Below are positions 5,271-19,111 of a stretch of DNA of 19,111 nucleotides, in pieces. The stretch's first letter is position 1. The number at the start of each line of letters is the position of its first letter. Below the pieces are notes generated by a model. The model did not search any database. It was not told the DNA's origin and worked only from the letters and a program-made list of their open reading frames with translations. The stretch is from the NCBI GenBank assembly GCA_031256775.1, contig JAIRPX010000154.1:1-19111 (forward strand). The letters run 5' to 3'. Position numbers and translations under genes: made by a program. The stretch comes from Dysgonamonadaceae bacterium. Its GTDB lineage: Bacteria; Bacteroidota; Bacteroidia; Bacteroidales; Azobacteroidaceae.

Positions 5271-7271
5271 TTAACGTTTTATATCCTGCCATCCGGGGCT
5301 TTGCGTCAGGTTTTTATTCAATTCGAGTTCCTGAAGGGGAATCGGATTGTAATAATATCTGTCGTCCCATTTCACGACGCCATTGCTTACATTCGGGCTT
5401 TTCGGATAGCCGACGATGAAGCCTTCGCTATCTACGAATACATCTGAATTGAGCGTAGCTTTCGGCGCATTTTTCGCCTTGCTTGTATTTGTGCCGTCGT
5501 ACAGTTTTTGTTTTTCTGCCGTAAATTTCATGCCTCTTATGGGCTTTTCAATAAACCTTCCGGCTTTCCAGCGTACCAAATCTTCGCGGCGAAGGCCTTC
5601 CATTGCCATTTCTATGCGGCGTTCGCGGCGTATTTCGCGAAGAATGGGACTCGGAACGTATCCCGCATATTGCCGGTAAAGATTATCCAAGTGAGTATCG
5701 GCAGGAATGTTCTGCAAAGTCAGCTTGCTGTTGGGATATTTGGAAAAATCAAATCCTGCGCGTTGACGCAAGACATTGACGGTCTTGTCCAAATCCTCAT
5801 TTGTAATGGTTCCCAGTTCCGCTTTGGCTTCGGCATACATCAACAAGGCTTCCCCATAACGGAAAATCAAGGCTGTCTGCGAACCACTGGTAGTAGATCC
5901 GTTGTCTATCTGCTCGTTTGTCCAGTGCTTGATAAACATATAGCCGGTAACGCAAGGGCCGGCTGTCGGCGTTTGATTGGCAGTCGGACAGTTGTATGTA
6001 ATTTCCGGATACTTAAGCCCTTGCAGCGCCTGATTGATTGCGCCCCCGTTATCGTCCCTGTTAAAGACAGTGACATATTCGCCCGGCTTCACTACGGTTT
6101 GCCGCAGGCGCGGGTCGCGGTTGTCAAGCTCTCGCCAGTCGTCGCCGTCATAGCCTTTGAAAAGGGGGCTTGAGGCAGCCGGCAGGCCATCAATACACAA
6201 GTATTCGTCTATCAAGTCTTTGGTGGCTCCCTTACAATAGCGTCCGCTTGCATTTCCGCGGTTCATATTGAAGTATCGCGAGGTTCCGTGCCCCAGCTTG
6301 GAGCCGTCATATACCCGTGCGAGGATGGCTTCCTTGTGGTCACCACCCGTCATGCCGTTCAGCTTGAAGAGATGCCAGTACGGGTCGTTTCCTACTTCGG
6401 CGCTCGGTACATTATATAACTGATACTTGTTTGTCGCCATAATCGCTTCGCAGGCTGTTGCACATTCTTCAAGGAACCTGTTGGCCGTGTTTTGCAAGCC
6501 CAATTCGGTATGATACTTTCGGAAAGTTCCTTCAAACAGGCAGAAACGCGCTTTCAGGAAGTTTGCCATGTCGCGGTTGATGCGTCCTGTTGGTCCGCCT
6601 GTGTTGTTCATATACTGCACGGCGTAGTCGAGGCATTTCATCACGCTATCCACAAGTTGCGTTCTTGGCGTACGCGGGGAATACAATTCGGGAGAATTGG
6701 TATTCAAATCTTTTTCCAGCCAAGGCGCTTCTCCGAAGGCGACTATCTTCCAGTAATAATCCCAAGCCTTAAAGAAATAAGCCTCGGCGGCGTATTTGTT
6801 CAGGATGTCGGGGCTGCTCACCGAGCCTTCCGCTTCGCGGTAATGGCTCAGGAAATAGTTGATTGTACGCAGGTTACCCCACCGCCAGCCGGTATTGTTG
6901 CCATCGTCGAGCGAAGTTACCGCGCTGGCCGGCACTTGCCATGTACCTTGCATGCGGTTAACAATATCGCCCGAAGTATTGGAAAATCCAATGGCGTTAT
7001 CTGTGAAAATGTCGCCGTATATGATATAACTTCCGCGCGTAATGTAGAACGGTGGAGCATAACTGTAAGCATTGCCTGTCTGATGCCCCATGCAATATAC
7101 ATTGTATAATTGATTAAGGTACAAAGGCAAGTCGCCTTCATTTTTTAGAAAAACACCTTCGGCAAGCGTATTATAAGGATCTTGCTGCATAAAATCGTCG
7201 TTACACGAGATCAGGGTAAATCCTGCGCATATACAAACGATTGTAATATATTTTTTTATTATTTTTTTCAT
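5271..7271 (-). CDS. susD: SusD/RagB-family nutrient-binding outer membrane lipoprotein
   Basis: The 666-aa ORF starts with ATG 20 bp downstream of the SusC-like gene. Its lipoprotein signal has the lipobox and an acidic export signal (GFTLISCNDDFMQQDP). It is aromatic-rich and sits in the canonical SusC-SusD pair position. Confidence 0.85.
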   Translation of the reverse strand: MKKIIKKYITIVCICAGFTLISCNDDFMQQDPYNTLAEGVFLKNEGDLPLYLNQLYNVYCMGHQTGNAYSYAPPFYITRGSYIIYGDIFTDNAIGFSNTSGDIVNRMQGTWQVPASAVTSLDDGNNTGWRWGNLRTINYFLSHYREAEGSVSSPDILNKYAAEAYFFKAWDYYWKIVAFGEAPWLEKDLNTNSPELYSPRTPRTQLVDSVMKCLDYAVQYMNNTGGPTGRINRDMANFLKARFCLFEGTFRKYHTELGLQNTANRFLEECATACEAIMATNKYQLYNVPSAEVGNDPYWHLFKLNGMTGGDHKEAILARVYDGSKLGHGTSRYFNMNRGNASGRYCKGATKDLIDEYLCIDGLPAASSPLFKGYDGDDWRELDNRDPRLRQTVVKPGEYVTVFNRDDNGGAINQALQGLKYPEITYNCPTANQTPTAGPCVTGYMFIKHWTNEQIDNGSTTSGSQTALIFRYGEALLMYAEAKAELGTITNEDLDKTVNVLRQRAGFDFSKYPNSKLTLQNIPADTHLDNLYRQYAGYVPSPILREIRRERRIEMAMEGLRREDLVRWKAGRFIEKPIRGMKFTAEKQKLYDGTNTSKAKNAPKATLNSDVFVDSEGFIVGYPKSPNVSNGVVKWDDRYYYNPIPLQELELNKNLTQSPGWQDIKR

Positions 7272-7291
7272 ATTCTTCCGTTATTTAAAAT

Positions 7292-10200
7292 TTAAAATGT
7301 AATCTGAGCACCAACGGCAATTGTTCTCTTTTGTGGATAGGCGTCCGAAATTTGATCGGGGTCAAAAATAGACGGGATTTCCGTAATTTCAAACAAGTTG
7401 TAACCCGACAGGGTAAAGCGCAGTTTTTCAACATGCAGTCTTTTTATCAGAGAAGCAGGCACAGTATAACCCAATACAGCCTGTTTCATACGCAGATAAG
7501 CTCCGTTGACCAGCCATCCTGTCTGTACGGCAGGTCCTCCGGCGGTAGAGCTATAACGGGGAAACTTCGCGTCGATCTGGTCAGGCTTCCACGAACGTTC
7601 GTACATCCACCGGCTGCCGGCGTTGTTTGTTCCGCCGCCCCAATAAGTGGTGCTGCCGATCCACAGGTCGCGCTTGGCGACGCCCTGGAACAACATGCTG
7701 AGGTCGAAACCTTTCCACGAAGCGCCCAGCGTAAGGCCAAACTTGTAACGCGGCGTATTGTTTCCTATGATGCGCCGGTCACCCGGATCGTCGGCCGTAT
7801 TGGAGCCGGAGTTGATAATTCCGTCGCCGTTCAGGTCTTTCCGCCACGCATCGCCGGGCCAGACATTGCCACCCTGATAAGGACCGTAGAATTTATAGCT
7901 GTTGCCATCGACTATAAGATCTTCCATTTGCAGAATGCCTCCGGTTTCGTATCCCCAGATTTCGCCAACGTTCATACCTTCATAGTAAAGATAATCTCCC
8001 AGCGTTTTTATGGGGTTGGAAGGATAACTCAGCACTTTGGCCATAGCATCCGACAAAACGAGGCCTGCATTGTACTGCAATCCGTTGGCGAGCTTGTCTT
8101 TCCATTCCAGGCTGAGTTCCCATCCTTTTGAGCGAAGCGCCCCGCTATTTTCACGCGGAGCCGAAACGCCCATCAAATTGGGATATGCAACGCTTCCTTC
8201 CACCAGGATATCGGTGGTTTTGCGTTCAAATACGTCTAAAGAAAAGTTCAGGCGGTTTTGAAAGAACCCAGCGTCCAGCCCAATGTTGGTGGTTGCCGCT
8301 TTTTGCCAGGTCAAGGTAGGCGACACAAGGGACGGCGCGTTTACCGTATTGCTCCAGCTTCCGTCAATCCAGTAATTGGAAGCCGATGAGCTCATTGTCG
8401 CCTGATAGGGATAATAAGAATCGGGCTGGCTACCCAATTTACCATACGATCCCCTTATTTTAAGATTTGAAAGCCAATTTTTCGAAAAATCCATAAAACC
8501 TTCTTCCGAGATTCTCCATCCGACAGAGAAAGAGGGGAAGAAAAAGTATCGTCCGTTAGGTGTAAAACGGCTGCTACCGTCGTAGCGACCATTGACTTCA
8601 AATAAATATTTCCCTGCGAAATTATAATTGATCCGGCCGAAAGCTGCTCTTCCGGTGCGTTTTTGCGCCGAAGTTTCTATTGTATTTAAAGTGGGATCTT
8701 CTGTTGCGCTTGGATTTAAAATATTGGGTGAAAGTAAATTACGTAGATTAAGCGCCGACTGATCGTATTCTACGTATTCCTGATTATACCCGACAATAGC
8801 CGAAAGCGTATGTTTTTCCTTGAATGTTTTGTTGAAATCGGCATACACATTGATCTGGTAATTGTCGGTAACGTCTTTTTCAAATCTTCCCCTGTTTTCC
8901 TTGTATTCCTGTTGCTCGCTTACGGGCGTCCATGTATAGGTGAGATAGTAATGCGAAGGATCGACGCGCCTCAATGTACGTCCTTGCGGCGAATAGGAAA
9001 GATCTGCCTTGAGCTTCAGGATTTTCGGGATAACGATAAATTCCGGCGACACGGCCAAAACCGTAGTCCACCGCTTGGTTACCGTCCGGTTGCCGTAATT
9101 CAGCCATGCAAGATAATTATCCGTCCACTGCTCGCCGCTCGGATCGGTCTGCAAAGTCTTTATGGGCATATTGATATTCTTGTCGGCGTCCTGTTTCAAT
9201 ATCGACCAGATAGTACCCTTATAACTCGGCACGTAAGGTTCTTCGTAGCTGTAACGGTTATAATTGACTTTTGTTTCCACATTAAACCAATCGGTTACTT
9301 TTGCATTAAAGCGGGTAGCGATGTTGTAGCGGTTGTATTGGTCTTCGCCGATTTTATACATGCCGTCTTGCGTCATGTAACCCAGCGAAAGATGATAGGC
9401 GATTTTATCCGATCCTCCCGACAGGCTCACGTTATGCTTTTGTGTAGGCGCGTAGTCGCGAACCACTTCTTTGTAAGGATTCATATTTCCAACCCATACG
9501 ATTGAGTTTCCGTTCATTATATACCGGTTTTCCGGATTGGTTGGATCTGCCATGTATTTTTCGATCGCTTCCATCTTTCTCTTGTCCAAATCGCTTGGCT
9601 GATTGTTGACAGAGGTCCACTGGGTATTTTGCATCACGAAGCGTTGAATTTCATAAGCGTTCATAATGTCGGGGAGGGCGGAGGGCTTGTCATACGAAAG
9701 ATCATAATTGTAGCTGATTTTTCCCTTTTGGTTGAATTTACCCGCTTTGGTTGTAATCAACACGACTCCCCATGTTGCTTTTGTTCCGTAAATGGCCGAA
9801 GCTGAAGCATCCTTAATTACACTCATGCTTTCAACATCGTTCGGATTCATCTGGTTCAGCAATGTGGAGGTCATTTCCACTCCATCCACTAAAATTAACG
9901 GTTCGCCGTTTTTAAGTTCCCATCTGGAGTCTGTCGTATTGTAGTCGATAGAGGTAGTTCCACGAATATTAAAACTGGGTACCGTGTTGGGCTTCCCGTC
10001 GCTCATGGAAATATTCAGGTTAGGAACAACGCCTTGTAAGGCTTGGCCGATATTGGCCACGGGGCGGTTTTCAAATGTTTCGGATCCAACAGAGGAAACG
10101 GCTCCGGTCAGGTTTACTTTTTTTTGTGTCTGGAAGCCAACGACCACCACATCGTCCAATAATTTTGAATCTTCCGCAAGTTTTACGTTAATTGTTGTTT

Positions 10201-10495
10201 GCGTTCCCGCTTTGTACTCTTGCGTAGCATATCCGATATACGAAAATACCAGAACAGTGTTTGGACCGTCGGCAGTGATACTGTATTTACCGTCAATATC
10301 GCTTACCGTTCCTTTTGTTGTGTTTTTAAGAGTAACACTGACTCCTACGAGAGGTTCGCTGCTCATGTCTGTTACTGTTCCTGTAATTGTATTCTGCGCC
10401 CTGCAAAGGCAACAGACACAAAAACCGAAAAAGAGTAACAGAAAGATTTTGCATTTGAATCTTTTTCTAAAATTTTCGATAGTACAATGTTTCAT
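7292..10495 (-). CDS. susC: SusC/RagA-family TonB-dependent outer membrane transporter
   Basis: The ORF-track start at 10501 is a TTG. The first in-frame ATG is at 10495 (MKHCTIENFRKRFKCKIFLLLFFGFCVCCLCRAQ signal), so the protein is ~1067 aa. A carboxypeptidase-regulatory-like N-domain (NTITGTVTDMSSEPLVGVSVTLKNTTKGTVSDIDGKYSI) is followed by a TonB-box region (DDVVVVGFQTQ), a plug and a long beta-barrel ending in the aromatic C-terminus AQITF. There is no STN/N-terminal signalling extension. Confidence 0.9.
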   Translation of the reverse strand: MKHCTIENFRKRFKCKIFLLLFFGFCVCCLCRAQNTITGTVTDMSSEPLVGVSVTLKNTTKGTVSDIDGKYSITADGPNTVLVFSYIGYATQEYKAGTQTTINVKLAEDSKLLDDVVVVGFQTQKKVNLTGAVSSVGSETFENRPVANIGQALQGVVPNLNISMSDGKPNTVPSFNIRGTTSIDYNTTDSRWELKNGEPLILVDGVEMTSTLLNQMNPNDVESMSVIKDASASAIYGTKATWGVVLITTKAGKFNQKGKISYNYDLSYDKPSALPDIMNAYEIQRFVMQNTQWTSVNNQPSDLDKRKMEAIEKYMADPTNPENRYIMNGNSIVWVGNMNPYKEVVRDYAPTQKHNVSLSGGSDKIAYHLSLGYMTQDGMYKIGEDQYNRYNIATRFNAKVTDWFNVETKVNYNRYSYEEPYVPSYKGTIWSILKQDADKNINMPIKTLQTDPSGEQWTDNYLAWLNYGNRTVTKRWTTVLAVSPEFIVIPKILKLKADLSYSPQGRTLRRVDPSHYYLTYTWTPVSEQQEYKENRGRFEKDVTDNYQINVYADFNKTFKEKHTLSAIVGYNQEYVEYDQSALNLRNLLSPNILNPSATEDPTLNTIETSAQKRTGRAAFGRINYNFAGKYLFEVNGRYDGSSRFTPNGRYFFFPSFSVGWRISEEGFMDFSKNWLSNLKIRGSYGKLGSQPDSYYPYQATMSSSASNYWIDGSWSNTVNAPSLVSPTLTWQKAATTNIGLDAGFFQNRLNFSLDVFERKTTDILVEGSVAYPNLMGVSAPRENSGALRSKGWELSLEWKDKLANGLQYNAGLVLSDAMAKVLSYPSNPIKTLGDYLYYEGMNVGEIWGYETGGILQMEDLIVDGNSYKFYGPYQGGNVWPGDAWRKDLNGDGIINSGSNTADDPGDRRIIGNNTPRYKFGLTLGASWKGFDLSMLFQGVAKRDLWIGSTTYWGGGTNNAGSRWMYERSWKPDQIDAKFPRYSSTAGGPAVQTGWLVNGAYLRMKQAVLGYTVPASLIKRLHVEKLRFTLSGYNLFEITEIPSIFDPDQISDAYPQKRTIAVGAQITF

Positions 10496-10506
10496 AAACA
10501 ATAGAT

Positions 10507-11649
10507 TTAAAATTTATAATATGATTGATAAATTTCACTTCCTGCCAGCAAGAATGCGCCCACGCCGTAAGCAGCAGTCATATTTGCCGTCACTTTTTTA
10601 GGATCTGCACCGACAGGCTGCACCCATCCGAGTTTCCCGTTTTTATCTATGGCAGAAACCAGAGCTGTCCACGATTTTTTCACGACAGGTGTATATTTTT
10701 TTTTATCCAGCAAGTCCTTGTTGACACCGTAAGCCAATGCGTAGGTAATAAGCGCCGTAGCGCTGGTTTCAGGTGCCGGGTAGCTCGCAGGATCCAGCAG
10801 GCTTGCATGCCAAAAACCATCTTTATCCTGCAATGCCGCCAATTGCGAAACAAACTCTTTGAACAGATTTTCGTAAAAAGGCCGGTACTCTGAGTTTTCA
10901 GGAAGCAGTTTCAAAATATTTACTAATCCTGCGGCCACCCAGCCGTTGCCTCTTCCCCAAAAGACTTTTTCCCCATTCGCTTCTTTTTTGTTAAAATAGC
11001 TGCTATCTCTAAAGAACAGTTTCTTTTTTCGGTCATATAAAAAATTATATGTTCTTTTAAATTCTCTGTCCATAAATTGAAGATATTCGTCGTTTCCTTC
11101 GATTTTTGTCAGATGTGCATAAACAGGGGGAGCCATGAACAAAGCGTCGCACCATGTCCATGATTGTTTGTTGGATATGCTCATTGCGGAATCGGGGGGA
11201 TTACTGATGATCCAGTCTGCTCTTTCCTTTGTGGAACAGAGCATTTTATTCTCTTTGTAGAGATTGAACATATTCAGGTAAAATTGTCCGATACAGAGTT
11301 CGTCGGCATGATAGAGTCCGTATATAGGGTATTTAAGAAAATTGGCGGGAATATTCCAGTTACTTGTTAAACCGATGTTTTCCAGCCACTGAAAACAGGA
11401 TGAATCGTCGGCTATTTTTGCCCATTCAAACATTCCCAAGTATAAAACGGCATTTGTCCATGAATCTATTCCATAATCATGCAGATTATCGGTTGTAGAG
11501 TACTTGAAGTTGTCGATTTGCCAGTCGGCGACTTTTTTCATTGAAGATTTTATATCCGGTAACTTTAATGCCGACCTGCTCCAACAGGGAAAAACAGATA
11601 TTATTCCCCAGAAAAGCAAAAAAATGACAATGTTCTTGTGTCTTTTCAT
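10507..11649 (-). CDS. Glyco_hydro_88-superfamily (GH88/GH105) unsaturated glucuronyl / rhamnogalacturonyl hydrolase-like enzyme with a signal peptide; first gene of the locus
   Basis: The 380-aa ORF starts with ATG and has an N-terminal signal (MKRHKNIVIFLLFWGIISVFPCWS). It shows (alpha/alpha)6-type motifs shared by the UGL/YteR families (DSWTNAVLYLGMFEW, YHADELCIGQFYL, WTWCDALFMAPPVYAHL, GRGNGWVAAGL). Its stop codon lies 11 nt before the SusC ATG. Confidence 0.65.
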   Translation of the reverse strand: MKRHKNIVIFLLFWGIISVFPCWSRSALKLPDIKSSMKKVADWQIDNFKYSTTDNLHDYGIDSWTNAVLYLGMFEWAKIADDSSCFQWLENIGLTSNWNIPANFLKYPIYGLYHADELCIGQFYLNMFNLYKENKMLCSTKERADWIISNPPDSAMSISNKQSWTWCDALFMAPPVYAHLTKIEGNDEYLQFMDREFKRTYNFLYDRKKKLFFRDSSYFNKKEANGEKVFWGRGNGWVAAGLVNILKLLPENSEYRPFYENLFKEFVSQLAALQDKDGFWHASLLDPASYPAPETSATALITYALAYGVNKDLLDKKKYTPVVKKSWTALVSAIDKNGKLGWVQPVGADPKKVTANMTAAYGVGAFLLAGSEIYQSYYKF

Positions 11650-11687
11650 ATAGTATATTTTGTTTTTTTTAAGTTTTTAAGGTGCAA

Positions 11688-11695
11688 CAAAAATA
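11688..11695 (-). promoter_or_regulatory. Candidate Bacteroides-type -7 promoter element (TAnnTTTG) for the GH88/105-susC-susD-lipoprotein-M60-GH2 operon
   Basis: The reverse complement of caaaaata (11688-11695) is TATTTTTG, matching TAnnTTTG. It lies ~39 nt upstream of the ATG at 11649. No well-spaced -33 TTTG was found. Confidence 0.35.
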
Positions 11696-11700
11696 TGTAT

Positions 11701-11767
11701 TTTGGTTTTCAAGTTAATATTTTTTGCATTGCTATTATTGCCTTATTTTTTGCTGTAATTGCCAAAT
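11701..11767. repeat. Copy 1 of a ~67-bp near-perfect direct repeat in the locus upstream region
   Basis: Copy 1 reads tttggttttcaagttaatattttttgcattgctattattgccttattttttgctgtaattgccaaat. It differs from the copy at 11821-11887 at only ~2-3 positions. Each copy contains two internal ATTTTTTGC(N)ATTGC sub-motifs. Confidence 0.85.
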
Positions 11768-11820
11768 AGCTAATATTCAGTATGTTATATAGTGTATGAA
11801 TTGCAAAAAAAAGTATAAGG

Positions 11821-11887
11821 TTCGGTTTTCAAGTTAATATTTTTTGCATTGCTATTATTGCTTTATTTTTTGCTGTAATTGCCAAAT
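11821..11887. repeat. Copy 2 of the ~67-bp direct repeat, 120-bp period, separated from copy 1 by a 53-bp spacer
   Basis: Copy 2 reads ttcggttttcaagttaatattttttgcattgctattattgctttattttttgctgtaattgccaaat. The flanks diverge immediately outside the repeat. Confidence 0.85.
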
Positions 11888-12197
11888 GGTTGTGGTATAG
11901 ATAATTGTGATATGATATTATGAAGAAGAAAAGCTGTCTCAACTCAGTTATTAAACAAATCTTTGTCACCAAAATAGTTACATCAAGAAATCGTATGTTT
12001 TGAAAAACCGGACAAATCGTGTATATATCTTATGGTATAGCTTCCTTAAATGGCGACAACATCCAAACTTTTCACTATTCTGTTTATTGAAAAGAAGGTG
12101 TTCAAAAACCATTTGTTTTTCAAATCAACCGTAACCTTTAATGTTTACTGCAATAAGCTTGTACTTTACTACTTGGTCTCGGCTTTCGACTTTCATC

Positions 12198-12218
12198 AAA
12201 AAGCGTTTTCTAAACGCC
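12198..12218 (-). terminator. Candidate rho-independent terminator for the NfeD-flotillin operon
   Basis: On the minus strand the sequence reads GGCGTTTagaAAACGC followed by TTTTTG. This is a 6-7 bp stem with a 3-nt loop and a U5 tract. It lies ~185 nt downstream of the flotillin stop at 12402. Confidence 0.3.
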
Positions 12219-12401
12219 ATCTTTCGAATGTAAAGGGGTGATGAAAGGCAATCCAATGGCAAAACAAAACGATTGTTTATTAATAAAAGTGCTATTTTTT
12301 AGGGAAGAATTTGGATATGAATTTAAGAAAGTTTTCACAAAGGAGCAAAAGTGCAACGTATTCATCGTCCATCTTTACTCCTTTGTGGAATAAGGCAAAA
12401 C

Positions 12402-13976
12402 TTACGCGAGATTATTATTGTCCGAATGTTTTCCTTTCAATGTGTTAGGGATTCCGGGAATGGTTTTCATGATATCAGTAACAGGAGCGATGGACGATAT
12501 CAAACCGGTAAGCAGGTTTGTCAAAGTACCTCCTTGAGTGGTATCCATGACATTGACATTACCTAAATTGATGTGTTCAAAAGCTTTCACTTGTTCGGCG
12601 GCGATATCTTTCCATTGATCGACCATTTTCCATTGGATTGCTACTTGCGGATTGTTTTCTGCCACTCTCACCATAGCTTCAAACCCTTCGGCTTGCGCCA
12701 ATAACGATGCTTTTTCGGCGGCGGCTTTTGCCAGTCCTTGTTGTTCGATCACTTTTGCGTGAGCCAATCCTTCGGCGGTAATAGCTTCGCCTTTTCCTTT
12801 ACCTTCGACAGCAACGGCGTCTGCGCGTCCTTGCGCTTCTATACGTTGTTTATTTGCGTTTGCTTCTGCTTCTTTTTCCAATTTCAATTGGTAGGCTTGG
12901 GCGTCGATCAATTTTTGTTGTTTGGCTATTTCTGCCGGAACAATTTGCTCTGCTTTCAAGGCGGCTTCTGTTCGTTTGGCTCTTGCTTCTTCGGCTTCTT
13001 TACGCGCTAATTCTTTGTTTTTTTCTATTTCGGCTTTAGCTCTTTCGTCAGCTGATAAGGCCAAACTTTGCGATTCGGCTTTAATTACTTCCAGTTCGGC
13101 ATTGGAGACTGTTATTTTTTTAGTTGCTTCGATTTCTCCGACACGGGCTTCGGAATCATATTTTGCAATATTGATATCCCTGTTTTTTTTAGCTTCAGCT
13201 ACGCGGGAATCACGTTCGGATTCGGCCTGGGCAACCGAAATACTCTGATCTCTTTGAGCGTTGGCGATAGCAATTAGCTCTTCTTTTTTTGTTGCGGCCA
13301 CTGTTGCATTTTTAATTTTCATCTGTTCGGCTACTTGGGTTTCTCCTTCGCGTTCGGCTGTCGAAATTTCCACATTAGCCTGATTGATCGCTTTGGCCTG
13401 GTCCTTTTTACCCAAAGCGACAATATATCCGGCTTCATCGCGGATATCAGTTATGTTAATGTTAATTAAATGCAACCCTATTTTGCGCAATTCGGTATCA
13501 ATAAGGCCTTTTGCTTTAAGTAAAAATTCATCTCTGTCAGCGTTTAGCTTTTCAATAGTCATATCGGCAATAATAGTTCTCATTTGACCGTAAACGATAT
13601 CTTTGACCAAGTCTTCAATTTCACCCCGTCCTAAGCCCAGAATGCGCTCTGCTGCTGCCTGCATCACATCCTGTTCGGTGCTGATACCTACGGTAACGGT
13701 GGTTGGTACATCCACTCTGATGTTTTGTGAAGACAACGCTTTTTGCAGGTTGCATTCAAACTGCAAAGGTTTCAACGACATGTAAGCATATCCCTGTAAG
13801 ACGGGAATAACAAACGCCGCTCCGCCCTGAATGCACTTGGATGATTTATTACCTCCTGTTTTACCATAGATTACCAAGATTTCATCCGATTTGCATTTTC
13901 TGAATCGGGATAAAATACCGATAAGCGAAAATACAATAAGCAAAACCAATACTCCAATAAAAATAATTAAATTCAT
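12402..13976 (-). CDS. Flotillin-family membrane protein (SPFH/band-7 domain; FloT/YqiK-like)
   Basis: The 524-aa ORF starts with ATG and has an N-terminal TM helix (MNLIIFIGVLVLLIVFSLIGIL). An SPFH domain (ILVIYGKTGG...GGAAFVIPVLQ...) is followed by a long Ala/Glu/Lys/Gln-rich coiled-coil region (EAEEARAKRTEAALKAEQ...) typical of the flotillin domain. A compositionally simple tail follows. Confidence 0.9.
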   Translation of the reverse strand: MNLIIFIGVLVLLIVFSLIGILSRFRKCKSDEILVIYGKTGGNKSSKCIQGGAAFVIPVLQGYAYMSLKPLQFECNLQKALSSQNIRVDVPTTVTVGISTEQDVMQAAAERILGLGRGEIEDLVKDIVYGQMRTIIADMTIEKLNADRDEFLLKAKGLIDTELRKIGLHLININITDIRDEAGYIVALGKKDQAKAINQANVEISTAEREGETQVAEQMKIKNATVAATKKEELIAIANAQRDQSISVAQAESERDSRVAEAKKNRDINIAKYDSEARVGEIEATKKITVSNAELEVIKAESQSLALSADERAKAEIEKNKELARKEAEEARAKRTEAALKAEQIVPAEIAKQQKLIDAQAYQLKLEKEAEANANKQRIEAQGRADAVAVEGKGKGEAITAEGLAHAKVIEQQGLAKAAAEKASLLAQAEGFEAMVRVAENNPQVAIQWKMVDQWKDIAAEQVKAFEHINLGNVNVMDTTQGGTLTNLLTGLISSIAPVTDIMKTIPGIPNTLKGKHSDNNNLA

Positions 13977-13995
13977 AATTTATAGTATAAAGTAA

Positions 13996-14502
13996 TTAAA
14001 TAATAAAATCAATCGGATAAACCAATTGGCGTGTACCGGACACTTTTATTTTTTGTCCCTTTTCGAAATGAATTTCTTCAGGACACTCTAAAGTAATAGT
14101 TACCGGCCTGCCTTCCAGAGTGACAAATACTTCTCCTACTTTTCGCTTATCGTCCCAAAAATATACTTCAGCTTCCATCTCTTTTATTTCATGAGTATAT
14201 TTCATATTTTGTTGCAATTTGTCATAGACCCATTTATACAAGAAGTATAATACAACGACAAAAATGATACCCACAAAGACTCCCATTGTGGTCGAAAAAA
14301 AAGTAACTTCGTGCATTAGAGTTAATTCAAGCGAAAAACCAATAGTAAAATGCAGCAGACCTTTGAAAGAAAGAATATCGCCCCACAGAAATCCACTATC
14401 CATATCCGAATCTATATCGAAATTGCCGAAAAACAGAGATCCTATAGCGTTGATAATAAACAAAATCCCTGATACAATCAAGACTATCTCATACCATGTC
14501 AT
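13996..14502 (-). CDS. NfeD-like short membrane protein (YuaF/YqiJ-type partner of flotillin)
   Basis: The 168-aa ORF starts with ATG and has N-terminal TM helices. Its C-terminus is OB-fold-like (GEVFVTLEGRPVTITLECPEEIHFEKGQKIKVSGTRQLV). It lies 19 bp upstream of the flotillin gene, the conserved nfeD-floT arrangement. Confidence 0.7.
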   Translation of the reverse strand: MTWYEIVLIVSGILFIINAIGSLFFGNFDIDSDMDSGFLWGDILSFKGLLHFTIGFSLELTLMHEVTFFSTTMGVFVGIIFVVVLYFLYKWVYDKLQQNMKYTHEIKEMEAEVYFWDDKRKVGEVFVTLEGRPVTITLECPEEIHFEKGQKIKVSGTRQLVYPIDFII

Positions 14503-14843: not shown

Positions 14844-16016
14844 TTATTGATTGTTATCCTTAAGATGGAATGGCTGCGAAATGATTTGAAAAATTTTTTC
14901 AGCTACCTTGCCGGAGGCGCCCGGCGGCCCGAGCAGGGAAATAATTGCCTGATAATCGTTATCCATTTGTTTCCTGTACGTTTCGTCATTCAGGAGCAAA
15001 TCCAACTCTTTACGAATTTGCAGGGATGAAAAATGCTTGCCGAATAATTCCTTAACAACCGATTTTCCTGCAATCAGATTTACTAAGGAAATATAAGGAC
15101 AGGAAAAAAAAGTTTCAAAAATGAAAGAACTGAGGTATTTAAGTGGCATTTTATAGCAAACCGCTTGAGGAATCCGAAGTAAAGCTGTTTCTAAAGTGGC
15201 TGTACCCGAAGTGACTAATGCGGCGCGGGATTGTGAAAGCAAGCGATAAGTTTGTCCGAAGATGACAGGTATTTGGTCCTGTTTGGTGAAGAGTTCATAA
15301 TAATGCGGATCGATTCCCGGAGATCCGCCAATAACCGGTTGGTATTCTCCGAAAGACGCAACGGCTTCTAACATTGCAGGTAGATTATCCTTGATTTCCT
15401 GTTTGCGGCTACCGGCTAAAAGAGCGATTATGGGTTTATTTTCAAGTTGATTAACTTGAATGAAATTTTCAAACGTTTCGTCTTTGTAATTTCTACCGGC
15501 AAGTGCATCGACTGTAGGATTTCCCATATATGCCACTTCCATTTGATGTTTTTTGTAAAACTCTGTTTCGAAAGGCAAAATACAGAACATTTTGTCTATA
15601 TATTTCTTAATTTTTTCAATGCGGTATTTTTTCCATGCCCAGATTTTAGGGGAAATATAATAGTTGATGAACGGCGAACGGCAATTGGGAAACGGATGTT
15701 TTTTTAAATACTCGGCGATCTTGAGATTAAATCCCGGATAATCGACCAAAATTACTGTATCGGGCTGGTATTCTTCGATTGCTTTTTTGCAAAGCGTCAT
15801 ATTATCAAGTACCGTTCGGAGATTCATTAAAACGGGAATAAATCCCATAAACGCCATATAGCGGTAGTGTTTGATTAATATTCCGCCTTCCGCTTGCATA
15901 AGATCTCCTCCAAAATAGCGGAAATCTGCTTTCGGGTCTGTTTTTTTCAACGAATGCATTAGATTAGAGGCATGCAAATCGCCTGAGGCTTCTCCGGCAA
16001 TAAGAAAATATTTCAT
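14844..16016 (-). CDS. lpxB: Lipid-A-disaccharide synthase
   Basis: The canonical LpxB N-terminus MKYFLIAGEASGDLHASNLMHSLK begins at the ATG at 16016..16014. The ORF-track start at 16115 is an upstream in-frame extension overlapping surE. The protein is ~390 aa with GT-B-type motifs (ALLAGSRKQEI, LVTSGTATLETALL). Confidence 0.9.
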   Translation of the reverse strand: MKYFLIAGEASGDLHASNLMHSLKKTDPKADFRYFGGDLMQAEGGILIKHYRYMAFMGFIPVLMNLRTVLDNMTLCKKAIEEYQPDTVILVDYPGFNLKIAEYLKKHPFPNCRSPFINYYISPKIWAWKKYRIEKIKKYIDKMFCILPFETEFYKKHQMEVAYMGNPTVDALAGRNYKDETFENFIQVNQLENKPIIALLAGSRKQEIKDNLPAMLEAVASFGEYQPVIGGSPGIDPHYYELFTKQDQIPVIFGQTYRLLSQSRAALVTSGTATLETALLRIPQAVCYKMPLKYLSSFIFETFFSCPYISLVNLIAGKSVVKELFGKHFSSLQIRKELDLLLNDETYRKQMDNDYQAIISLLGPPGASGKVAEKIFQIISQPFHLKDNNQ

Positions 16017-16789
16017 ACAGACAGTTCCCAGTTTTTTATTTTCCCTAAAACCGAATAAGCCGTCATATCCGGTTGGAGTGGAACCAGAGCTGCATATCCT
16101 TGCGATAGTGCCCATTCGTCACTCTGCTCGTTTCCAAGTTCTTCATTAAGAAACGAACCTGTTAACCAATAGACTGTTTGCCCGGAAGGGTCTTTAGCTG
16201 TTTGAAACTCTTTAGCCCAATATCCTTTGGTTTGCGTACAAATTTTCAAACCTTTTACATTCGAAATATCAGGAATGTTTAAATTGATACAGACACCTTC
16301 AGGCAATTCTCCCGCCAGTATTTTTTCGGCTATCAGCTTTCCATATTTTACTGCTTGAGTAAAATCGGCGTCGGGCGAATGGTTGGTAAGAGAAATTCCA
16401 ACAGAAGGTATTTTTAAGATACATCCTTCCAAAGCGGCGCCAACAGTTCCCGAATAAATTACACAGATAGCAGCATTGGAACCGTGGTTAATTCCTGAAA
16501 GAAGCAAATCCGGTTTTCTGTCCAGTATTTCATTAATTCCCAATTTTACGCAATCTACGGGCGTACCCGTGCAGCTATAAACGGTAAGATCTTTTTCTTT
16601 ATGAATCTGATTTAAACGAATCGGATTGGAGGCTGTTATGGCGCTCGACATACCTGAACGTATCCGGTCGGGCGCGATTACCACGATTTCTCCCAGAGAG
16701 CGAACACCTTCAATTAGTGCGTTAATCCCTTTTGCATGAACGCCGTCGTCATTCGTTATAAGAATAAGAGGCTTTTTGTATTTCAACAT
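16013..16789 (-). CDS. surE: 5'/3'-nucleotidase SurE
   Basis: The protein reads MLKYKKPLILITNDDGVHAKGINALIEGV...; the DDG motif and overall pattern are typical of SurE. The start is reassigned to the ATG at 16789, 4 nt after the upstream stop. The longer ORF-track start at 16831 would overlap the upstream gene by 38 nt. The stop TGA overlaps the lpxB ATG in the sequence ATGA. Confidence 0.85.
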   Translation of the reverse strand: MLKYKKPLILITNDDGVHAKGINALIEGVRSLGEIVVIAPDRIRSGMSSAITASNPIRLNQIHKEKDLTVYSCTGTPVDCVKLGINEILDRKPDLLLSGINHGSNAAICVIYSGTVGAALEGCILKIPSVGISLTNHSPDADFTQAVKYGKLIAEKILAGELPEGVCINLNIPDISNVKGLKICTQTKGYWAKEFQTAKDPSGQTVYWLTGSFLNEELGNEQSDEWALSQGYAALVPLQPDMTAYSVLGKIKNWELSV

Positions 16790-16793
16790 AACT

Positions 16794-18566
16794 TTATTTT
16801 TCAGGTTGCAAAGGTACGTTTTTTTGTACAATATCCATTACTCGCATCAAATTTCCTCCCCATATTTTGGCAATATCTTCTTCGGAATATCCTCTGCGGA
16901 GAAGTTCTAAAGTGATCTGCGGCATTTCGTTAGTTGCATTGACGCCTTTAATTCCGCCGCCGCCGTCGAAGTCGGAACCGATGCCTGCATGGTCGACGCC
17001 CACCGTTTTTACCACATAATCAATATGATCGACAGCATCTTTCACAGTTGCTTTTCCGTCTTTTCGAAGAAAATAAGCGTACAGGCAAATTTGAATGACT
17101 CCGCCTTTGTCGGCTATTGTACGCATCAGTTTATCGGAAATATTTCGCGGATGATTACAAAGTGCTTTTACGGAAGAGTGGGAGGCAATGACCGGAAAAC
17201 GGCTTATTTCCAGCACGTCGAACGATGTTTTTTCGGAAGTGTGGGAGATATCAACTATTATTCCCAGGCGATTCATTTCTTTTACTACTTCTTTACCGAA
17301 CAGGCTGAGTCCGTTGTGTTCCGTGCGACTGTTTGTGGCCGCATCGCAAATATCATTGTCGCCATTGTGAGATAATGTAATATAAGTAACTCCCATGTCG
17401 GCGAATTTTTTAATATTTTCAATATTTTTTCCAATAGCATATCCATTTTCGATTCCGATAAAAATGGCTTTTTTCCCTTCTTTTTTCAGGTGCTTGAGAT
17501 CGGCGGTCGAACGAGCGATTCCGGCAATATTTTTATTATTTTCAACTTGTCGAATTATTTCTCCGATTATTGATTTGGCTTTGTCTACTGCTTTTTGGGA
17601 TGATATTACGTCTCTTTTCCCTTGTTTGAGGTAGGCTACCATAAATGCAGCGTCCAATAATCCATCTTCCATTCGGGGAATTTCTACTTTTAACTGATAA
17701 TTGGTAAATGATTCTTTCGACGAAACACCAAAGGAGCGAAGACCGATTTTCAAAAGTGGATTTCTTTTCCCTATATCTATCTTATAGGGAAAATACATAG
17801 GTGTATCACAATGAGAATCAATTGAGTATATCCTCTTGTGGATTTCTTTTGCTTTCCGGTACAATTCGGCTTCGTCTACTGTTTGCTTAAAAATCGAGTG
17901 CATGGCTTCGTTTCCGGCAACAGACATGTTTTCGGGATGCCATTGTACGCCTAAAATAAAGTTTCCCTGAGTAGATTCGATTGCTTCAATAATTCCATCT
18001 TCGGAACGGGCTATAGCTTCAAATTCCGGCGCTAATATTTTAATGGCTTGATGATGGAATGAATTAACAAGTAACTTATTTGTTTTAACCGGATCATACA
18101 GTTTTGATCCGGTTAAAATATCTACAAAATGCGTTCCTGTTTTTCGTTCCTCCTGCTGATTGTGATTGATTTTCGAATCCGGCATTTGCGAAGGTATATC
18201 CTGAATCAAGGTTCCGCCGAAAGCAACATTGATCACTTGCTGCCCCCGGCAAATTCCCAAAACAGGGATTTGTTTTTCGACTGCTCTTCGAACCAAATGA
18301 ATTTCACAACGATCTCTTTCTATATCATACGATTCGACAAGCGGATGCAATTCTTCGTTAAACAACGGGGCATAAATGTCGCCTCCTCCGGTCAAAATAA
18401 GCCCGTCTATTTGCGCCAAAATGTTTTCTAATGTACCCAAATCTGTTGTTAGAGGTATTAATACAGGAACACCCCCCGCTTTGATAACCGCATTTACGTA
18501 AGCGTCGGAAATACAGGAACGGCTTTCACTATGATTGACAGATAAGCCGATAAGCATATTTATCAT
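16794..18566 (-). CDS. Bifunctional fusion: N-terminal class-I glutamine amidotransferase-like peptidase C26 (gamma-glutamyl hydrolase, PuuD-like) joined to a C-terminal M19 (renal-type) dipeptidase; cytoplasmic
   Basis: The ORF-track start at 18572 is a TTG; the first ATG is at 18566 (MINMLIGLSVN...). The N-terminal domain has the GATase1/C26 signatures GICRGQQ (nucleophile Cys), FHHQA and WHPE. From ~residue 240 the M19 dipeptidase signatures appear: IDSHCDTP, ITLSHNGDN, IVDISHTS, ASHSS and DFDGGGG. No signal peptide is present. Confidence 0.8.
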   Translation of the reverse strand: MINMLIGLSVNHSESRSCISDAYVNAVIKAGGVPVLIPLTTDLGTLENILAQIDGLILTGGGDIYAPLFNEELHPLVESYDIERDRCEIHLVRRAVEKQIPVLGICRGQQVINVAFGGTLIQDIPSQMPDSKINHNQQEERKTGTHFVDILTGSKLYDPVKTNKLLVNSFHHQAIKILAPEFEAIARSEDGIIEAIESTQGNFILGVQWHPENMSVAGNEAMHSIFKQTVDEAELYRKAKEIHKRIYSIDSHCDTPMYFPYKIDIGKRNPLLKIGLRSFGVSSKESFTNYQLKVEIPRMEDGLLDAAFMVAYLKQGKRDVISSQKAVDKAKSIIGEIIRQVENNKNIAGIARSTADLKHLKKEGKKAIFIGIENGYAIGKNIENIKKFADMGVTYITLSHNGDNDICDAATNSRTEHNGLSLFGKEVVKEMNRLGIIVDISHTSEKTSFDVLEISRFPVIASHSSVKALCNHPRNISDKLMRTIADKGGVIQICLYAYFLRKDGKATVKDAVDHIDYVVKTVGVDHAGIGSDFDGGGGIKGVNATNEMPQITLELLRRGYSEEDIAKIWGGNLMRVMDIVQKNVPLQPEK

Positions 18567-19111
18567 GAGCAATTTTACAAAAATATTAAGTTCAATTCTT
18601 AAAGTTCAAAATAAATAAACAAGTTATTCTTAAAAACGAACAAATGTACATGAAAAATTTCATATTTTGCATAAACAAATGGATTTCTATTAAAGCTGAT
18701 TTCAAAAAAGAAACATCATTTTGCATTTTCCGGTTCGATTTTGTATTTTCTTGAAATCTGGCGAATCGGATTTGCCCCATTTCACTTCTCCGTTTGCTCG
18801 ACGTATCATTTACTTGAGCATTTATATAACAGCAAAAAAATACTGTCATTGAAATTGAAAAATACTTTCTCATATTTGTGAAATTTAAAAGTTGATTGTT
18901 TTAGTACAGTGATAATTGGCGTGTTAGCCTGTATTCTTTTTCGTGGCTGCAAAATGTTGCTACTAACAGAAATGGTATCAATTTAACATCTAATTCTTAT
19001 TTCTTTATCAGTGCATACGCCGCAGAGTTGATAAATAAAATTGTTGGTGGGATAATGTCCGACAGATCAGTATGTTTTGGTGTGTCGATTGCAAGTATTG
19101 AATTAAAAGAA

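What the first reader, a model, noticed from the sequence alone, without database searches (positions are those of the whole stretch)
16794..18566. Single polypeptide fusing a C26 gamma-glutamyl hydrolase-type amidotransferase domain to an M19 dipeptidase
The N-terminal 235 aa carry the Cys-His GATase1/peptidase C26 signatures (GICRGQQ, WHPE). The C-terminal 350 aa carry the M19 renal-dipeptidase signatures (HCD, LSHNGD, VDISHTS, DFDGGG). The two activities would together degrade gamma-glutamyl peptides: gamma-Glu removal, then cleavage of the released dipeptide such as Cys-Gly from glutathione-like or peptidoglycan-derived peptides. The protein has no signal peptide, and the gene is translationally coupled to surE and lpxB, suggesting a housekeeping salvage role.
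Basis: partly seen in the sequence, partly recalled or inferred. Interest (0 to 1): 0.5.

Follow-up and report, generated by a model that had tools for sequence, protein, structure and literature searches.

The report
Fused gamma-glutamyl hydrolase and dipeptidase gene
This is a real, intact gene for one protein that joins a gamma-glutamyl-bond-cutting enzyme to a zinc dipeptidase; the fusion is common and already machine-annotated across Bacteroidales gut bacteria, but I found no biochemical study of it.

Summary
A single uninterrupted ORF on the minus strand (16794..18566; more likely start 18557) encodes a Peptidase_C26 domain (residues 11-212, E 2.5e-64) joined by a long helix to a Peptidase_M19 domain (residues 242-578, E 1.2e-103). 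All catalytic residues are present and nearly all are invariant in 83 related fusions.

It is not rare. More than 8000 database proteins and at least 544 matches in a one-genome-per-species collection encode relatives. Nearly all named ones are Bacteroidales, and JGI already names both activities. The family has a cytosolic clade, which includes this protein, and an exported clade with signal peptides.

surE and lpxB lie within about 6 kb of the fusion in 0 of 79 related loci, and the two 79%-identical relatives checked lack them too. The usual downstream partners are a type II glutaminyl cyclase and SufE.

The proposed mechanism is that C26 removes gamma-Glu and M19 then splits the released dipeptide, for example glutathione to Glu plus Cys-Gly to Cys plus Gly. 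It is plausible and has precedents in plant GGP1 and in GliJ/DPEP1, but it is untested.

Verdict: an ordinary member of a catalogued, uncharacterised fusion family. Interest is modest.

The parts
16794..18566 (-). Fusion gene (590 aa from ATG 18566; more likely 587 aa from ATG 18557; stop codon TAA at 16794-16796)
   Evidence: Single ORF. Pfam C26 plus M19. Identical to JGI protein P0001, 587 aa. Close homologues start MLIGLSVNH.
17931..18536 (-). Peptidase C26 / class I glutamine-amidotransferase-fold domain, residues 11-212. Nucleophile Cys106 (18249-18251), His210 (17937-17939), Glu212 (17931-17933), and S1 Gln110
   Evidence: PF07722 at 217.5 bits. 40% identical to Lin1909 (3fij), E 1e-46; PuuD E 1e-27, with CRG.Q and QWHPE aligned. 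These residues are invariant in 83 and in 39 fusion sequences. The model superposes on 3fij with target-normalised TM 0.93-0.94 and rmsd 1.5-1.8 A.
17832..17909 (-). Inter-domain connecting helix, residues 220-245
   Evidence: AlphaFold2 model: helix H220-245, block pLDDT 93-96, overall pTM 0.91.
16833..17843 (-). Peptidase M19 (renal-dipeptidase-type, TIM-barrel binuclear zinc) domain, residues 242-578. His252/Asp254 (HCD), Glu373, His400, His442, His463, Arg474, Asp532/Asp534 (DFDG)
   Evidence: PF01244 at 347 bits over 2-318 of 319 positions. E 1e-54 to 1e-41 against PvdM, GliJ, 2rag, Sco3058 and human DPEP1. Residues invariant in the 39-sequence alignment A1; in the 83-sequence alignment all pass the 98% mark except His463 and Asp534 (at least 85%). 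Target-normalised TM 0.83-0.86 against 2rag, GliJ and DPEP1.
18573..19054 (-). Upstream non-coding region that must hold the gene's own promoter. The sigma-70-type scan is uninformative for Bacteroidales
   Evidence: No credible ORF: the only one listed (18592-18873, 93 aa) was not scanned against any family and looks low-complexity. Promoter-like sites were no more frequent than in shuffled sequence.
16013..16789 (-). surE (5'/3'-nucleotidase). Its ATG lies 4 nt after the fusion's stop codon. Context only, not a conserved partner
   Evidence: PF01975 and NF001492 at 325 bits. Junction sequence read directly. Absent next to the fusion in 79 of 79 related loci.
14844..16016 (-). lpxB (lipid-A-disaccharide synthase). 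Its ATG overlaps the surE TGA (ATGA). Context only
   Evidence: PF02684 and TIGR00215 at 199 bits. Junction sequence read directly. Absent next to the fusion in related loci.

Best explanation
The gene encodes a cytosolic bifunctional hydrolase with two independent, intact active sites.

Step 1 (inferred). The N-terminal C26 domain uses Cys106, activated by His210/Glu212, to attack the gamma-carboxamide of a gamma-L-glutamyl compound whose amine part is a dipeptide, that is gamma-Glu-Xaa-Yaa. Examples are glutathione, glutathione S-conjugates and food- or host-derived gamma-glutamyl peptides. A gamma-glutamyl thioester forms and is hydrolysed to free glutamate.

Step 2 (inferred). The released dipeptide, for example Cys-Gly, is hydrolysed at the binuclear zinc site of the C-terminal M19 TIM barrel. 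The tripeptide ends up as three free amino acids.

Shown: the architecture, the conservation of both catalytic sets, the confident two-domain model, and the family's distribution.
Inferred: the substrates, the order of the steps, and any hand-over of the intermediate between the two sites.

In this contig the gene sits directly upstream of surE and lpxB. That is a lineage-specific rearrangement and says nothing about function.
For: - Both domains score far above family thresholds.
- All catalytic and metal-binding residues are invariant in the 39-sequence alignment A1. In the 83-sequence alignment (down to 43% identity) all pass the 98% mark except His463 and Asp534, which are at least 85% conserved. 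Both halves are therefore under selection.
- The S1 glutamine four residues after the nucleophile binds the alpha-carboxylate of the gamma-Glu moiety in plant GGP1 (PMC12958103). It is invariant here as Gln110.
- The closest characterised C26 enzymes all cleave gamma-L-glutamyl amides. PuuD and SpuA appear. GGP1 cleaves glutathione itself to Glu plus Cys-Gly.
- The M19 relatives include the Cys-Gly dipeptidases GliJ and human DPEP1.
- The AlphaFold2 model has pLDDT 90.9 and pTM 0.91 for the whole two-domain chain, which implies a fixed mutual orientation.
- The fusion persists across Bacteroidales families and through an old duplication into a cytosolic and an exported clade. This argues that the two halves work together and that no ATP or cytosolic cofactor is needed.
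- Three exported paralogues sit directly after a gene of the dicarboxylate/amino-acid:cation symporter family, with below-cutoff matches to DctA, SstT and GltP. This fits release of free amino acids.
Against: - There is no biochemical or genetic data on any member. Six literature searches found no paper on the fusion.
- Nothing here shows that these bacteria meet or import glutathione.
- Bacterial M19 enzymes crystallised with ligands bind L-Xaa-D-Xaa mimics (PDB titles 3s2j, 3ly0, 3neh). That would fit a peptidoglycan-peptide substrate instead.
- C26-only and M19-only relatives exist in Bacteroidales and are not adjacent to each other in the two cases examined, so each half can stand alone.
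- The NCBIfam PuuD equivalog score is below its cutoff (109 against 266), so specificity cannot be transferred.
Confidence: 0.45

Rival explanations
1. Two unrelated activities share one chain. A PuuD/SpuA-like gamma-glutamyl-amine hydrolase (GABA or polyamine catabolism) and a general dipeptidase for peptide nutrition are fused only for co-expression, with no shared substrate or pathway.
For: - The best characterised C26 hits are PuuD and SpuA.
- Single-domain C26-only and M19-only relatives occur in Bacteroidales at separate loci.
- Other promiscuous combinations exist: M19-M19, C26-C26 and M19-esterase.
Against: - The fusion is retained with both active sites intact across all sampled Bacteroidales families and in both the cytosolic and exported paralogue clades.
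- pTM 0.91 suggests a rigid, evolved interface rather than beads on a string.
- No gene of the gamma-glutamyl-amine pathways turned up among the recurrent neighbour clusters that were annotated; no targeted search for PuuA-type genes was made.
- The PuuD equivalog threshold is not met.
Confidence: 0.25
2. The protein recycles peptidoglycan stem peptides. The C26 domain cleaves the gamma-D-Glu-meso-DAP bond of L-Ala-gamma-D-Glu-mDAP, a role like that of MpaA. The M19 domain then cleaves the resulting L-Ala-D-Glu, which is an L-Xaa-D-Xaa dipeptide.
For: - Bacterial M19 structures were solved with L-Xaa-D-Xaa mimics: Sco3058 with L-Leu-D-Ala in 3s2j, plus 3ly0 and 3neh. From my own knowledge of the Raushel-lab work, Sco3058 prefers L-Xaa-D-Xaa.
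- An exported paralogue clade would meet muropeptides in the periplasm.
- In Rikenellaceae a Gate-domain membrane protein follows the gene in 17 loci. From my own knowledge it resembles SpmA/SpmB, which lie in the dacB operon of Bacillus.
- A C26-only relative lies two genes from a glucosaminidase-LysM gene.
Against: - All characterised C26 and class I amidotransferase sites bind an L-glutamyl moiety. Outside the folate gamma-glutamyl hydrolases that moiety has free alpha-amino and alpha-carboxyl groups, and the S1 architecture is described as conserved. A D-configured, N-acylated iso-glutamyl would need a remodelled pocket.
- No murein-recycling genes are conserved neighbours.
Confidence: 0.12
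3. The protein is a folylpoly-gamma-glutamate or poly-gamma-glutamate hydrolase, like the founding C26 member (eukaryotic gamma-glutamyl hydrolase). The dipeptidase clears short products.
For: The domain belongs to Pfam Peptidase_C26, the family named after folate gamma-glutamyl hydrolase.
Against: - No eukaryotic folate gamma-glutamyl hydrolase appears among the 22 sequence matches to solved structures; all closest relatives are the bacterial Lin1909/PuuD/SpuA group.
- The products of gamma-linked polyglutamate cleavage are gamma-peptides, which an alpha-dipeptidase would not cut (established M19 chemistry, from my own knowledge).
Confidence: 0.05
4. The protein is a true amidotransferase. 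The N-domain is a glutaminase that passes ammonia to the TIM-barrel domain, by analogy with HisH-HisF / His7.
For: A class I amidotransferase fold is fused to a TIM barrel. PF00117 is also matched at 64.7 bits.
Against: - The C26 score is much higher than the generic GATase score (217 against 65 bits).
- No whole-chain similarity to any amidotransferase complex was found. The best query-normalised TM is 0.54, from M19 alone, and GMP synthases reach only 0.27.
- The exported paralogues would work in the ATP-free periplasm.
- The M19 domain keeps a complete hydrolytic zinc site.
Confidence: 0.03

Closest known systems
Bacteroidales C26-M19 fusion proteins in public databases (JGI product name 'microsomal dipeptidase-like Zn-dependent dipeptidase/gamma-glutamyl-gamma-aminobutyrate hydrolase'; NCBI 'membrane dipeptidase' or 'gamma-glutamyl-gamma-aminobutyrate hydrolase family protein'), e.g. 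from Candidatus Symbiothrix, Candidatus Azobacteroides, Parabacteroides distasonis, Dysgonomonas gadei, Prevotella and Porphyromonas cangingivalis
   Same: Same two-domain order, same length (about 575-600 aa) and the same catalytic residues. Identity ranges from 79% down to about 42%.
   Different: This copy lacks the roughly 25-residue N-terminal extension that most cytosolic members carry. It is followed by surE-lpxB instead of glutaminyl cyclase and SufE.
Lin1909 (PDB 3fij), and PuuD (6vtv) and SpuA (7d4r/7d50/7d53): bacterial C26 gamma-glutamyl amide hydrolases
   Same: Same fold (target-normalised TM 0.87-0.94) and the same Cys-His-Glu triad in the CRG.Q and QWHPE motifs. 40% identity to Lin1909 and about 29% to PuuD and SpuA.
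   Different: Those are single-domain proteins. Lin1909 is uncharacterised. PuuD and SpuA act on gamma-Glu-GABA and gamma-Glu-polyamines, and the PuuD equivalog cutoff is not met here.
Arabidopsis gamma-glutamyl peptidase 1 (GGP1), a cytosolic C26 enzyme that degrades glutathione and GSH conjugates
   Same: Same family and mechanism (Cys thioester; S1 Gln four residues after the nucleophile). It releases Glu plus Cys-Gly in the cytosol, which is exactly the proposed first step (PMC12958103).
   Different: It is a distant subfamily and was not among the sequence or fold hits here. It is single-domain, and in plants the dipeptide is handled by a separate peptidase.
M19 dipeptidases: human renal dipeptidase DPEP1 (1itq), fungal GliJ (5lwz), Streptomyces Sco3058 (3id7), Caulobacter 2rag
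   Same: TIM-barrel binuclear zinc site with the HxD, E, H, H and DFDG motifs (E 1e-41 to 1e-50; target-normalised TM 0.76-0.86). GliJ and DPEP1 cleave Cys-Gly units downstream of gamma-Glu removal.
   Different: Those are stand-alone enzymes. DPEP1 is GPI-anchored and extracellular. There the gamma-Glu is removed by a separate enzyme: GGT or GliK (from my own knowledge).
Yeast DUG pathway: (Dug2-Dug3) amidotransferase-type glutathione hydrolase plus Dug1 Cys-Gly dipeptidase
   Same: Works alike: cytosolic removal of gamma-Glu by an amidotransferase-type cysteine hydrolase, followed by a metallodipeptidase (from my own knowledge; reference listed).
   Different: Different families (class II amidotransferase and M20) and separate polypeptides. 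This is an analogy only, not homology.

Membership tests
MEROPS C26 / Pfam PF07722 (gamma-glutamyl hydrolase-type class I amidotransferase fold) | Profile match above the curated threshold | tested here: met
   217.5 bits against a cutoff of 20.5, residues 11-212.
MEROPS C26 / Pfam PF07722 (gamma-glutamyl hydrolase-type class I amidotransferase fold) | Cys-His-Glu catalytic triad (nucleophile elbow G-x-C-x-G-x-Q; His and Glu in HPE) | tested here: met
   Cys106, His210 and Glu212 align with the CRG.Q and QWHPE motifs of Lin1909, PuuD and SpuA. They are invariant in 83 and in 39 fusion sequences.
MEROPS C26 / Pfam PF07722 (gamma-glutamyl hydrolase-type class I amidotransferase fold) | S1 glutamine that binds the alpha-carboxylate of the gamma-glutamyl group (Gln104 in GGP1, nucleophile plus 4) | tested here: met
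   Gln110 (Cys106 plus 4) is invariant. Its role is taken from PMC12958103.
MEROPS C26 / Pfam PF07722 (gamma-glutamyl hydrolase-type class I amidotransferase fold) | Fold | tested here: met
   The AlphaFold2 model matches 3fij with target-normalised TM 0.93-0.94 and rmsd 1.5-1.8 A, and 6vtv with 0.87-0.88.
MEROPS C26 / Pfam PF07722 (gamma-glutamyl hydrolase-type class I amidotransferase fold) | Gamma-glutamyl amide hydrolase activity | not testable with these tools
   Needs an enzyme assay.
PuuD (gamma-glutamyl-gamma-aminobutyrate hydrolase) equivalog, NCBIfam NF008471 | Score at or above the equivalog cutoff | tested here: not met
   109.1 bits against a cutoff of 266. The database label 'gamma-glutamyl-GABA hydrolase' is therefore a family-level name, not a specificity call.
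MEROPS M19 / Pfam PF01244 (renal/membrane dipeptidase family) | Profile match above the threshold, over the full domain length | tested here: met
   347 bits against a cutoff of 26; model positions 2-318 of 319.
MEROPS M19 / Pfam PF01244 (renal/membrane dipeptidase family) | Binuclear zinc ligands (HxD, bridging Glu, two His), catalytic Asp of DFDG, and substrate-carboxylate Arg | tested here: met
   His252, Asp254, Glu373, His442, His463, Asp532, Asp534, His400 and Arg474 are invariant in the 39-sequence alignment A1. In the 83-sequence alignment His463 and Asp534 fall just below the 98% mark. The DFDG, SH and EN motifs align with GliJ and PvdM. Mapping to DPEP1 residue numbers comes from my own knowledge and was not computed.
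MEROPS M19 / Pfam PF01244 (renal/membrane dipeptidase family) | Fold (amidohydrolase TIM barrel) | tested here: met
   Target-normalised TM 0.83-0.86 against 2rag, GliJ, DPEP1 and DPEP3.
MEROPS M19 / Pfam PF01244 (renal/membrane dipeptidase family) | Membrane or extracellular location, as the name 'membrane dipeptidase' implies | tested here: not met
   No signal peptide or hydrophobic N-terminus is present, and a stop codon lies 5 codons upstream of the first start. This is not a defining feature of bacterial members, and exported paralogues exist elsewhere in the family.
Two-step glutathione / gamma-glutamyl-peptide degradation systems (GGT+DPEP1, GGP1+dipeptidase, DUG) | A gamma-glutamyl-bond hydrolase together with a dipeptidase able to cut Cys-Gly | tested here: inconclusive
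   Both enzyme types are present as domains with intact sites. Their actual substrates are unknown.
Two-step glutathione / gamma-glutamyl-peptide degradation systems (GGT+DPEP1, GGP1+dipeptidase, DUG) | Demonstrated activity on glutathione, or growth on it as a cysteine source | not testable with these tools
   No experimental report was found.
   tblastn with the window's SurE and LpxB found them in 0 of 79 related loci (about 6 kb flanks where the contig allowed), with a positive control on the window itself. The two closest relatives checked have the M28 cyclase downstream, and P0003 also has SufE.

The most novel reading that the evidence does not exclude
The fusion is the missing Bacteroidales route for harvesting cysteine, glycine and glutamate from host or protist glutathione and other gamma-glutamyl tripeptides. 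It would be a single rigid polypeptide that does the job of GGT plus DPEP1 (or yeast DUG). The reactive Cys-Gly intermediate would pass directly from the cysteine-hydrolase site to the zinc site. Cytosolic and periplasmic versions would have been specialised by an ancient duplication.
Probability: 0.25. Interest if true: 0.55.

Novelty: new member of a known kind. Interest (0 to 1): 0.3.

Why it matters
If the sequential mechanism is right, this family would define how abundant gut Bacteroidales break down glutathione-type peptides without a classical gamma-glutamyl transpeptidase. The family includes Bacteroides, Phocaeicola, Prevotella, Parabacteroides, Alistipes and termite-gut symbionts. 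That bears on sulfur and cysteine supply in the gut, on the fate of glutathione conjugates secreted in bile, and on hydrogen sulfide production.

It would also be a clean model for substrate hand-over between a cysteine hydrolase and a metallopeptidase. As it stands, the gene is one ordinary member of a large fusion family that is already catalogued but has not been characterised.

Tried and rejected
- **surE/lpxB linkage.** Tested and rejected. It is absent from 0 of 79 related loci and from the two closest relatives checked.
- **Split-gene evidence.** C26-only (P0266) and M19-only (P0160, L074, L078) relatives exist. In the two loci examined they are not next to the other half. The gene upstream of P0160 looks, by eye, like an FtsX/LolE-type permease and is unrelated to the recurrent neighbours.
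- **Literature.** Six searches found nothing on the fusion: C26 + M19 + Bacteroides; PuuD name + dipeptidase + Bacteroides; Lin1909; membrane dipeptidase + amidotransferase + Bacteroides; the two Pfam accessions; cysteinylglycine + Bacteroides. A seventh search gave only plant, yeast, Francisella and Helicobacter glutathione papers. The Francisella paper mentions Bacteroides only for a promoter.
- **AlphaFold database fold search.** This would have given the taxonomic spread of the architecture, but the library was not available.
- **Model coordinates.** They are not exposed to scripts, so I could not measure the distance between the active sites or look for a tunnel.
- **Promoter and terminator scan.** Nothing above the shuffled background, as expected because Bacteroidales promoters are not sigma-70-like.
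- **tRNA and Rfam scans of the window.** Both empty.
- **Amidotransferase (ammonia-channelling) reading.** Considered and rejected; see the rival explanations.
Full report
**Observation.**
The window carries one uninterrupted minus-strand ORF, 16794..18572. A TAA lies five codons upstream of the first possible start, so no longer N-terminus or signal peptide can exist. The real start is probably the ATG at 18557 (587 aa). That is the JGI gene call for this very contig (P0001, 100% identical, contig length 19111), and the close homologues begin MLIGLSVNH.

Pfam places Peptidase_C26 at residues 11-212 (217.5 bits, E 2.5e-64). It places Peptidase_M19 at residues 242-578, covering 2-318 of the 319 model positions (347 bits, E 1.2e-103).

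**Are both halves catalytically competent?**
The N-domain is 40% identical to Lin1909 (PDB 3fij, E 1e-46) and about 29% identical to E. coli PuuD and P. aeruginosa SpuA. The nucleophile motif (G-I-C-R-G-Q-Q) and the Q-W-H-P-E motif align in all of them.

I aligned 83 full-length fusions taken from 79 genome loci (down to 43% identity), and separately 39 database homologues.
- In the C26 half, Cys106, His210, Glu212 and Gln110 are invariant in both alignments.
- In the M19 half, His252/Asp254 (HxD), Glu373, His400, His442, His463, Arg474 and Asp532/Asp534 (DFDG) are invariant in the 39-sequence alignment. In the 83-sequence alignment His463 and Asp534 fall just below the 98% mark but stay at least 85% conserved.
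- Gln110 sits four residues after the nucleophile. That is the position which binds the alpha-carboxylate of the gamma-glutamyl group in plant GGP1 (PMC12958103).

An AlphaFold2 model built on 39 homologues has mean pLDDT 90.9 and pTM 0.91. A long helix (220-245) joins the two domains. A pTM this high for a two-domain chain implies a defined mutual orientation.

In a Foldseek search of the PDB, no solved chain covers both domains (best query-normalised TM 0.54). The M19 half matches 2rag, PvdM, GliJ, Sco3058 and DPEP1. The C26 half matches Lin1909, PuuD and SpuA.

**How common is the fusion?**
It is very common within one order.
- The word-indexed protein search saturated at 8000 hits. All of the top 120 carry PF07722 plus PF01244, and many have the JGI product name 'microsomal dipeptidase-like Zn-dependent dipeptidase/gamma-glutamyl-gamma-aminobutyrate hydrolase'.
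Of the 79 loci kept, all but two M19-only cases and one contig-end truncation span both domains. They come from Dysgonomonadaceae, Candidatus Symbiothrix and Azobacteroides, Tannerellaceae and Parabacteroides, Bacteroides and Phocaeicola, Prevotella, Alloprevotella, Rikenellaceae and Alistipes, and Butyricimonas.
- Two bins carry other labels. The one labelled Desulfovibrionaceae (L021) clusters with Tannerellaceae in the tree and has Bacteroidales synteny, so it is probably mis-binned. The one labelled Lachnospiraceae (L063) was not in the tree, but it shows the AsnC and M28 neighbours typical of Prevotella-type loci.
- In the exhaustive library clustered at 50% identity, about 15 clusters are full-length fusions (39-51% identical to the query). 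The named members I looked up are Prevotella, Porphyromonas cangingivalis and Candidatus Aphodosoma, all Bacteroidales.
- Other arrangements also exist: M19-M19, C26-C26 and M19-esterase.

The window's closest relatives (73-79% identity) are termite-gut Symbiothrix, Azobacteroides and Dysgonomonadaceae bins.

**Two paralogue clades.**
N-termini and a neighbour-joining tree separate two clades.
- The cytosolic clade includes the window protein. Most members have an extra 25 residues or so at the N-terminus, which the window's subclade has lost.
- The exported clade has classic signal peptides, with a Gln right after the predicted cleavage site (for example ...AQA|Q...).

In Parabacteroides the two paralogues lie in tandem. 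So 'no signal peptide' is true of this protein but not of the family.

**Genomic context.**
In the window, the fusion's stop codon is followed 4 nt later by the surE start. The surE stop overlaps the lpxB start. This packing is not conserved.
- tblastn with the window's SurE and LpxB found neither in any of the 79 related loci (about 6 kb flanks where the contig allowed). The positive control on the window itself worked.
- The two 79%-identical relatives checked have a different downstream gene. P0003 is followed by an M28 protein and SufE. On the short P0002 contig, M28 is the only visible downstream gene.

Clustering all flanking ORFs gave these recurrent neighbours:
- gyrB upstream, in 33 loci.
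- An M28 lipoprotein immediately downstream, in 39 loci. It is the Bacteroidales type II glutaminyl cyclase (E 1e-92 to 1e-121 against PDB 6qro, 6qql, 4fuu and 3tc8).
- SufE after the cyclase, in 29 loci.
- An AsnC-type regulator upstream in Bacteroides and Prevotella, in 12 loci.
- A Gate-domain membrane protein immediately downstream in Rikenellaceae, in 17 loci.

Three exported paralogues follow a gene of the dicarboxylate/amino-acid:cation symporter family, with only below-cutoff matches to named transporters.

This contig has a private rearrangement.

**Mechanism.**
These points are shown:
- There are two intact hydrolytic sites on one confidently modelled chain.
- The fusion is retained across an order and through a duplication that put one copy in the periplasm.

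The second point argues that the halves cooperate. It also argues against any ATP- or cofactor-dependent amidotransferase chemistry.

These points are inferred:
- The C26 site forms a gamma-glutamyl thioester on Cys106 and releases the amine part.
- If that amine is a dipeptide, the M19 zinc site then splits it.

Precedents make this coherent. Plant GGP1, a C26 enzyme, hydrolyses glutathione to Glu plus Cys-Gly in the cytosol, and its S1 architecture is described as conserved across C26 and class I amidotransferases (PMC12958103). GliJ and DPEP1 are M19 Cys-Gly dipeptidases.

I put this sequential gamma-glutamyl-tripeptide model at about 0.45. The rivals are:
- Independent activities fused only for co-expression (0.25). 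Single-domain relatives do exist at separate loci.
- Murein tripeptide breakdown (0.12). C26 would cut gamma-D-Glu-mDAP and M19 would cut L-Ala-D-Glu. This is attractive because bacterial M19 structures bind L-Xaa-D-Xaa mimics, but it needs an unprecedented D-glutamyl, N-acylated specificity in the C26 pocket.
- Folate or poly-gamma-glutamate hydrolysis (0.05).
- Ammonia channelling (0.03).

**Comparison with what is known, and novelty.**
The protein meets every testable membership criterion for C26 and for M19. It does not meet the PuuD equivalog cutoff (109 against 266 bits). The database label 'gamma-glutamyl-GABA hydrolase' should therefore not be read as a specificity call.

The architecture is catalogued and named by automatic pipelines. 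I found no paper, structure or assay for it in the searchable literature or the PDB.

This window's gene is thus a new member of a known, uncharacterised kind. Nothing about this particular copy is unusual apart from its rearranged neighbourhood and the missing N-terminal extension.

**Verdict.**
- Interest is 0.3. A specialist would not be surprised by the fusion. It does offer a directly testable hypothesis for glutathione and gamma-glutamyl peptide use by gut Bacteroidales.

Noticed in passing
Related loci L001-L005, L009-L013, L016, L019, L022, L024, L025, L028-L031, L033-L038, L057, L059, L062, L066, L067, L070, L071, L073, L083, L084 (not in the window): In about half of the related loci the fusion gene is followed, at a median of 44 nt on the same strand, by the Bacteroidales type II glutaminyl cyclase (an M28 lipoprotein; PDB 6qro, 6qql, 4fuu), and usually then by SufE. 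This pairing survives from Prevotella to Dysgonomonadaceae although the upstream gene changes (gyrB or AsnC). I have no functional link to offer. The window has lost this arrangement.
   Followed up: partly
L019 6218-8068, L025 7707-9557, L028 7709-9559, L023 5848-7698, L053 5821-7695, L017 1977-3797, L064, L065 and others: A separate clade of the same C26-M19 fusion carries N-terminal signal peptides with Gln right after the predicted cleavage site. In Parabacteroides it lies in tandem with the cytosolic copy. The family therefore works in two compartments.
   Followed up: partly
L026, L032, L039, L040, L042, L049, L051, L052, L055, L056, L060, L069, L072, L075-L077 (17 loci in all); L017, L023, L053; L015: Other recurrent neighbours. 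A 410-aa Gate-domain (nucleoside-recognition) membrane protein lies a median of 18 nt downstream in Rikenellaceae-type loci. A gene of the dicarboxylate/amino-acid:cation symporter family lies just upstream of three exported paralogues. In L015 the exported paralogue lies directly after a 1124-aa and a 546-aa ORF that look like a SusC/SusD pair by size and by eye (not scanned). These are possible substrate or product transporters.
   Followed up: partly
L074 877-1908 (Dysgonamonadaceae bin) and L078 6025-7116: These are M19-only versions. The L074 copy is 62% identical to the window's M19 half and sits in the usual position after gyrB, so the C26 half appears to have been lost there. Stand-alone C26-only relatives also exist (P0266; L080 5001-5783).
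   Followed up: partly
window 548-11649 (minus strand): A polysaccharide-utilisation-type locus: GH88 unsaturated glucuronyl hydrolase (10507-11649), SusC-like TonB receptor (7292-10501), SusD-like protein (5271-7271), a Big_2-domain protein (3929-5245), and a 1101-aa M60-like peptidase with F5/8 type C domains and a type IX secretion C-terminal sorting domain (548-3853). The mix suggests targeting of a host glycoprotein or glycosaminoglycan.
   Followed up: no
window 11650-12401: About 750 nt of AT-rich sequence (GC about 0.32, against about 0.42-0.52 in the flanking utilisation locus) with no ORF over 71 aa, no tRNA and no Rfam hit. It lies between the flotillin gene and the GH88 gene and is presumably the regulatory region of the utilisation locus.
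   Followed up: no
window 12402-14502 (minus strand): A 524-aa SPFH/Band 7 (flotillin-like) protein with a long charged coiled region lies directly downstream of a 168-aa membrane protein that has only a weak, sub-threshold RseC_MucC hit. The layout resembles the NfeD-flotillin gene pairs (from my own knowledge; not tested).
   Followed up: no
window 16013-16016: The surE stop and the lpxB start overlap as ATGA, a classic coupling signature. The longest lpxB ORF (from 16115) would add 33 residues that lie before the start of the LpxB profile matches.
   Followed up: partly
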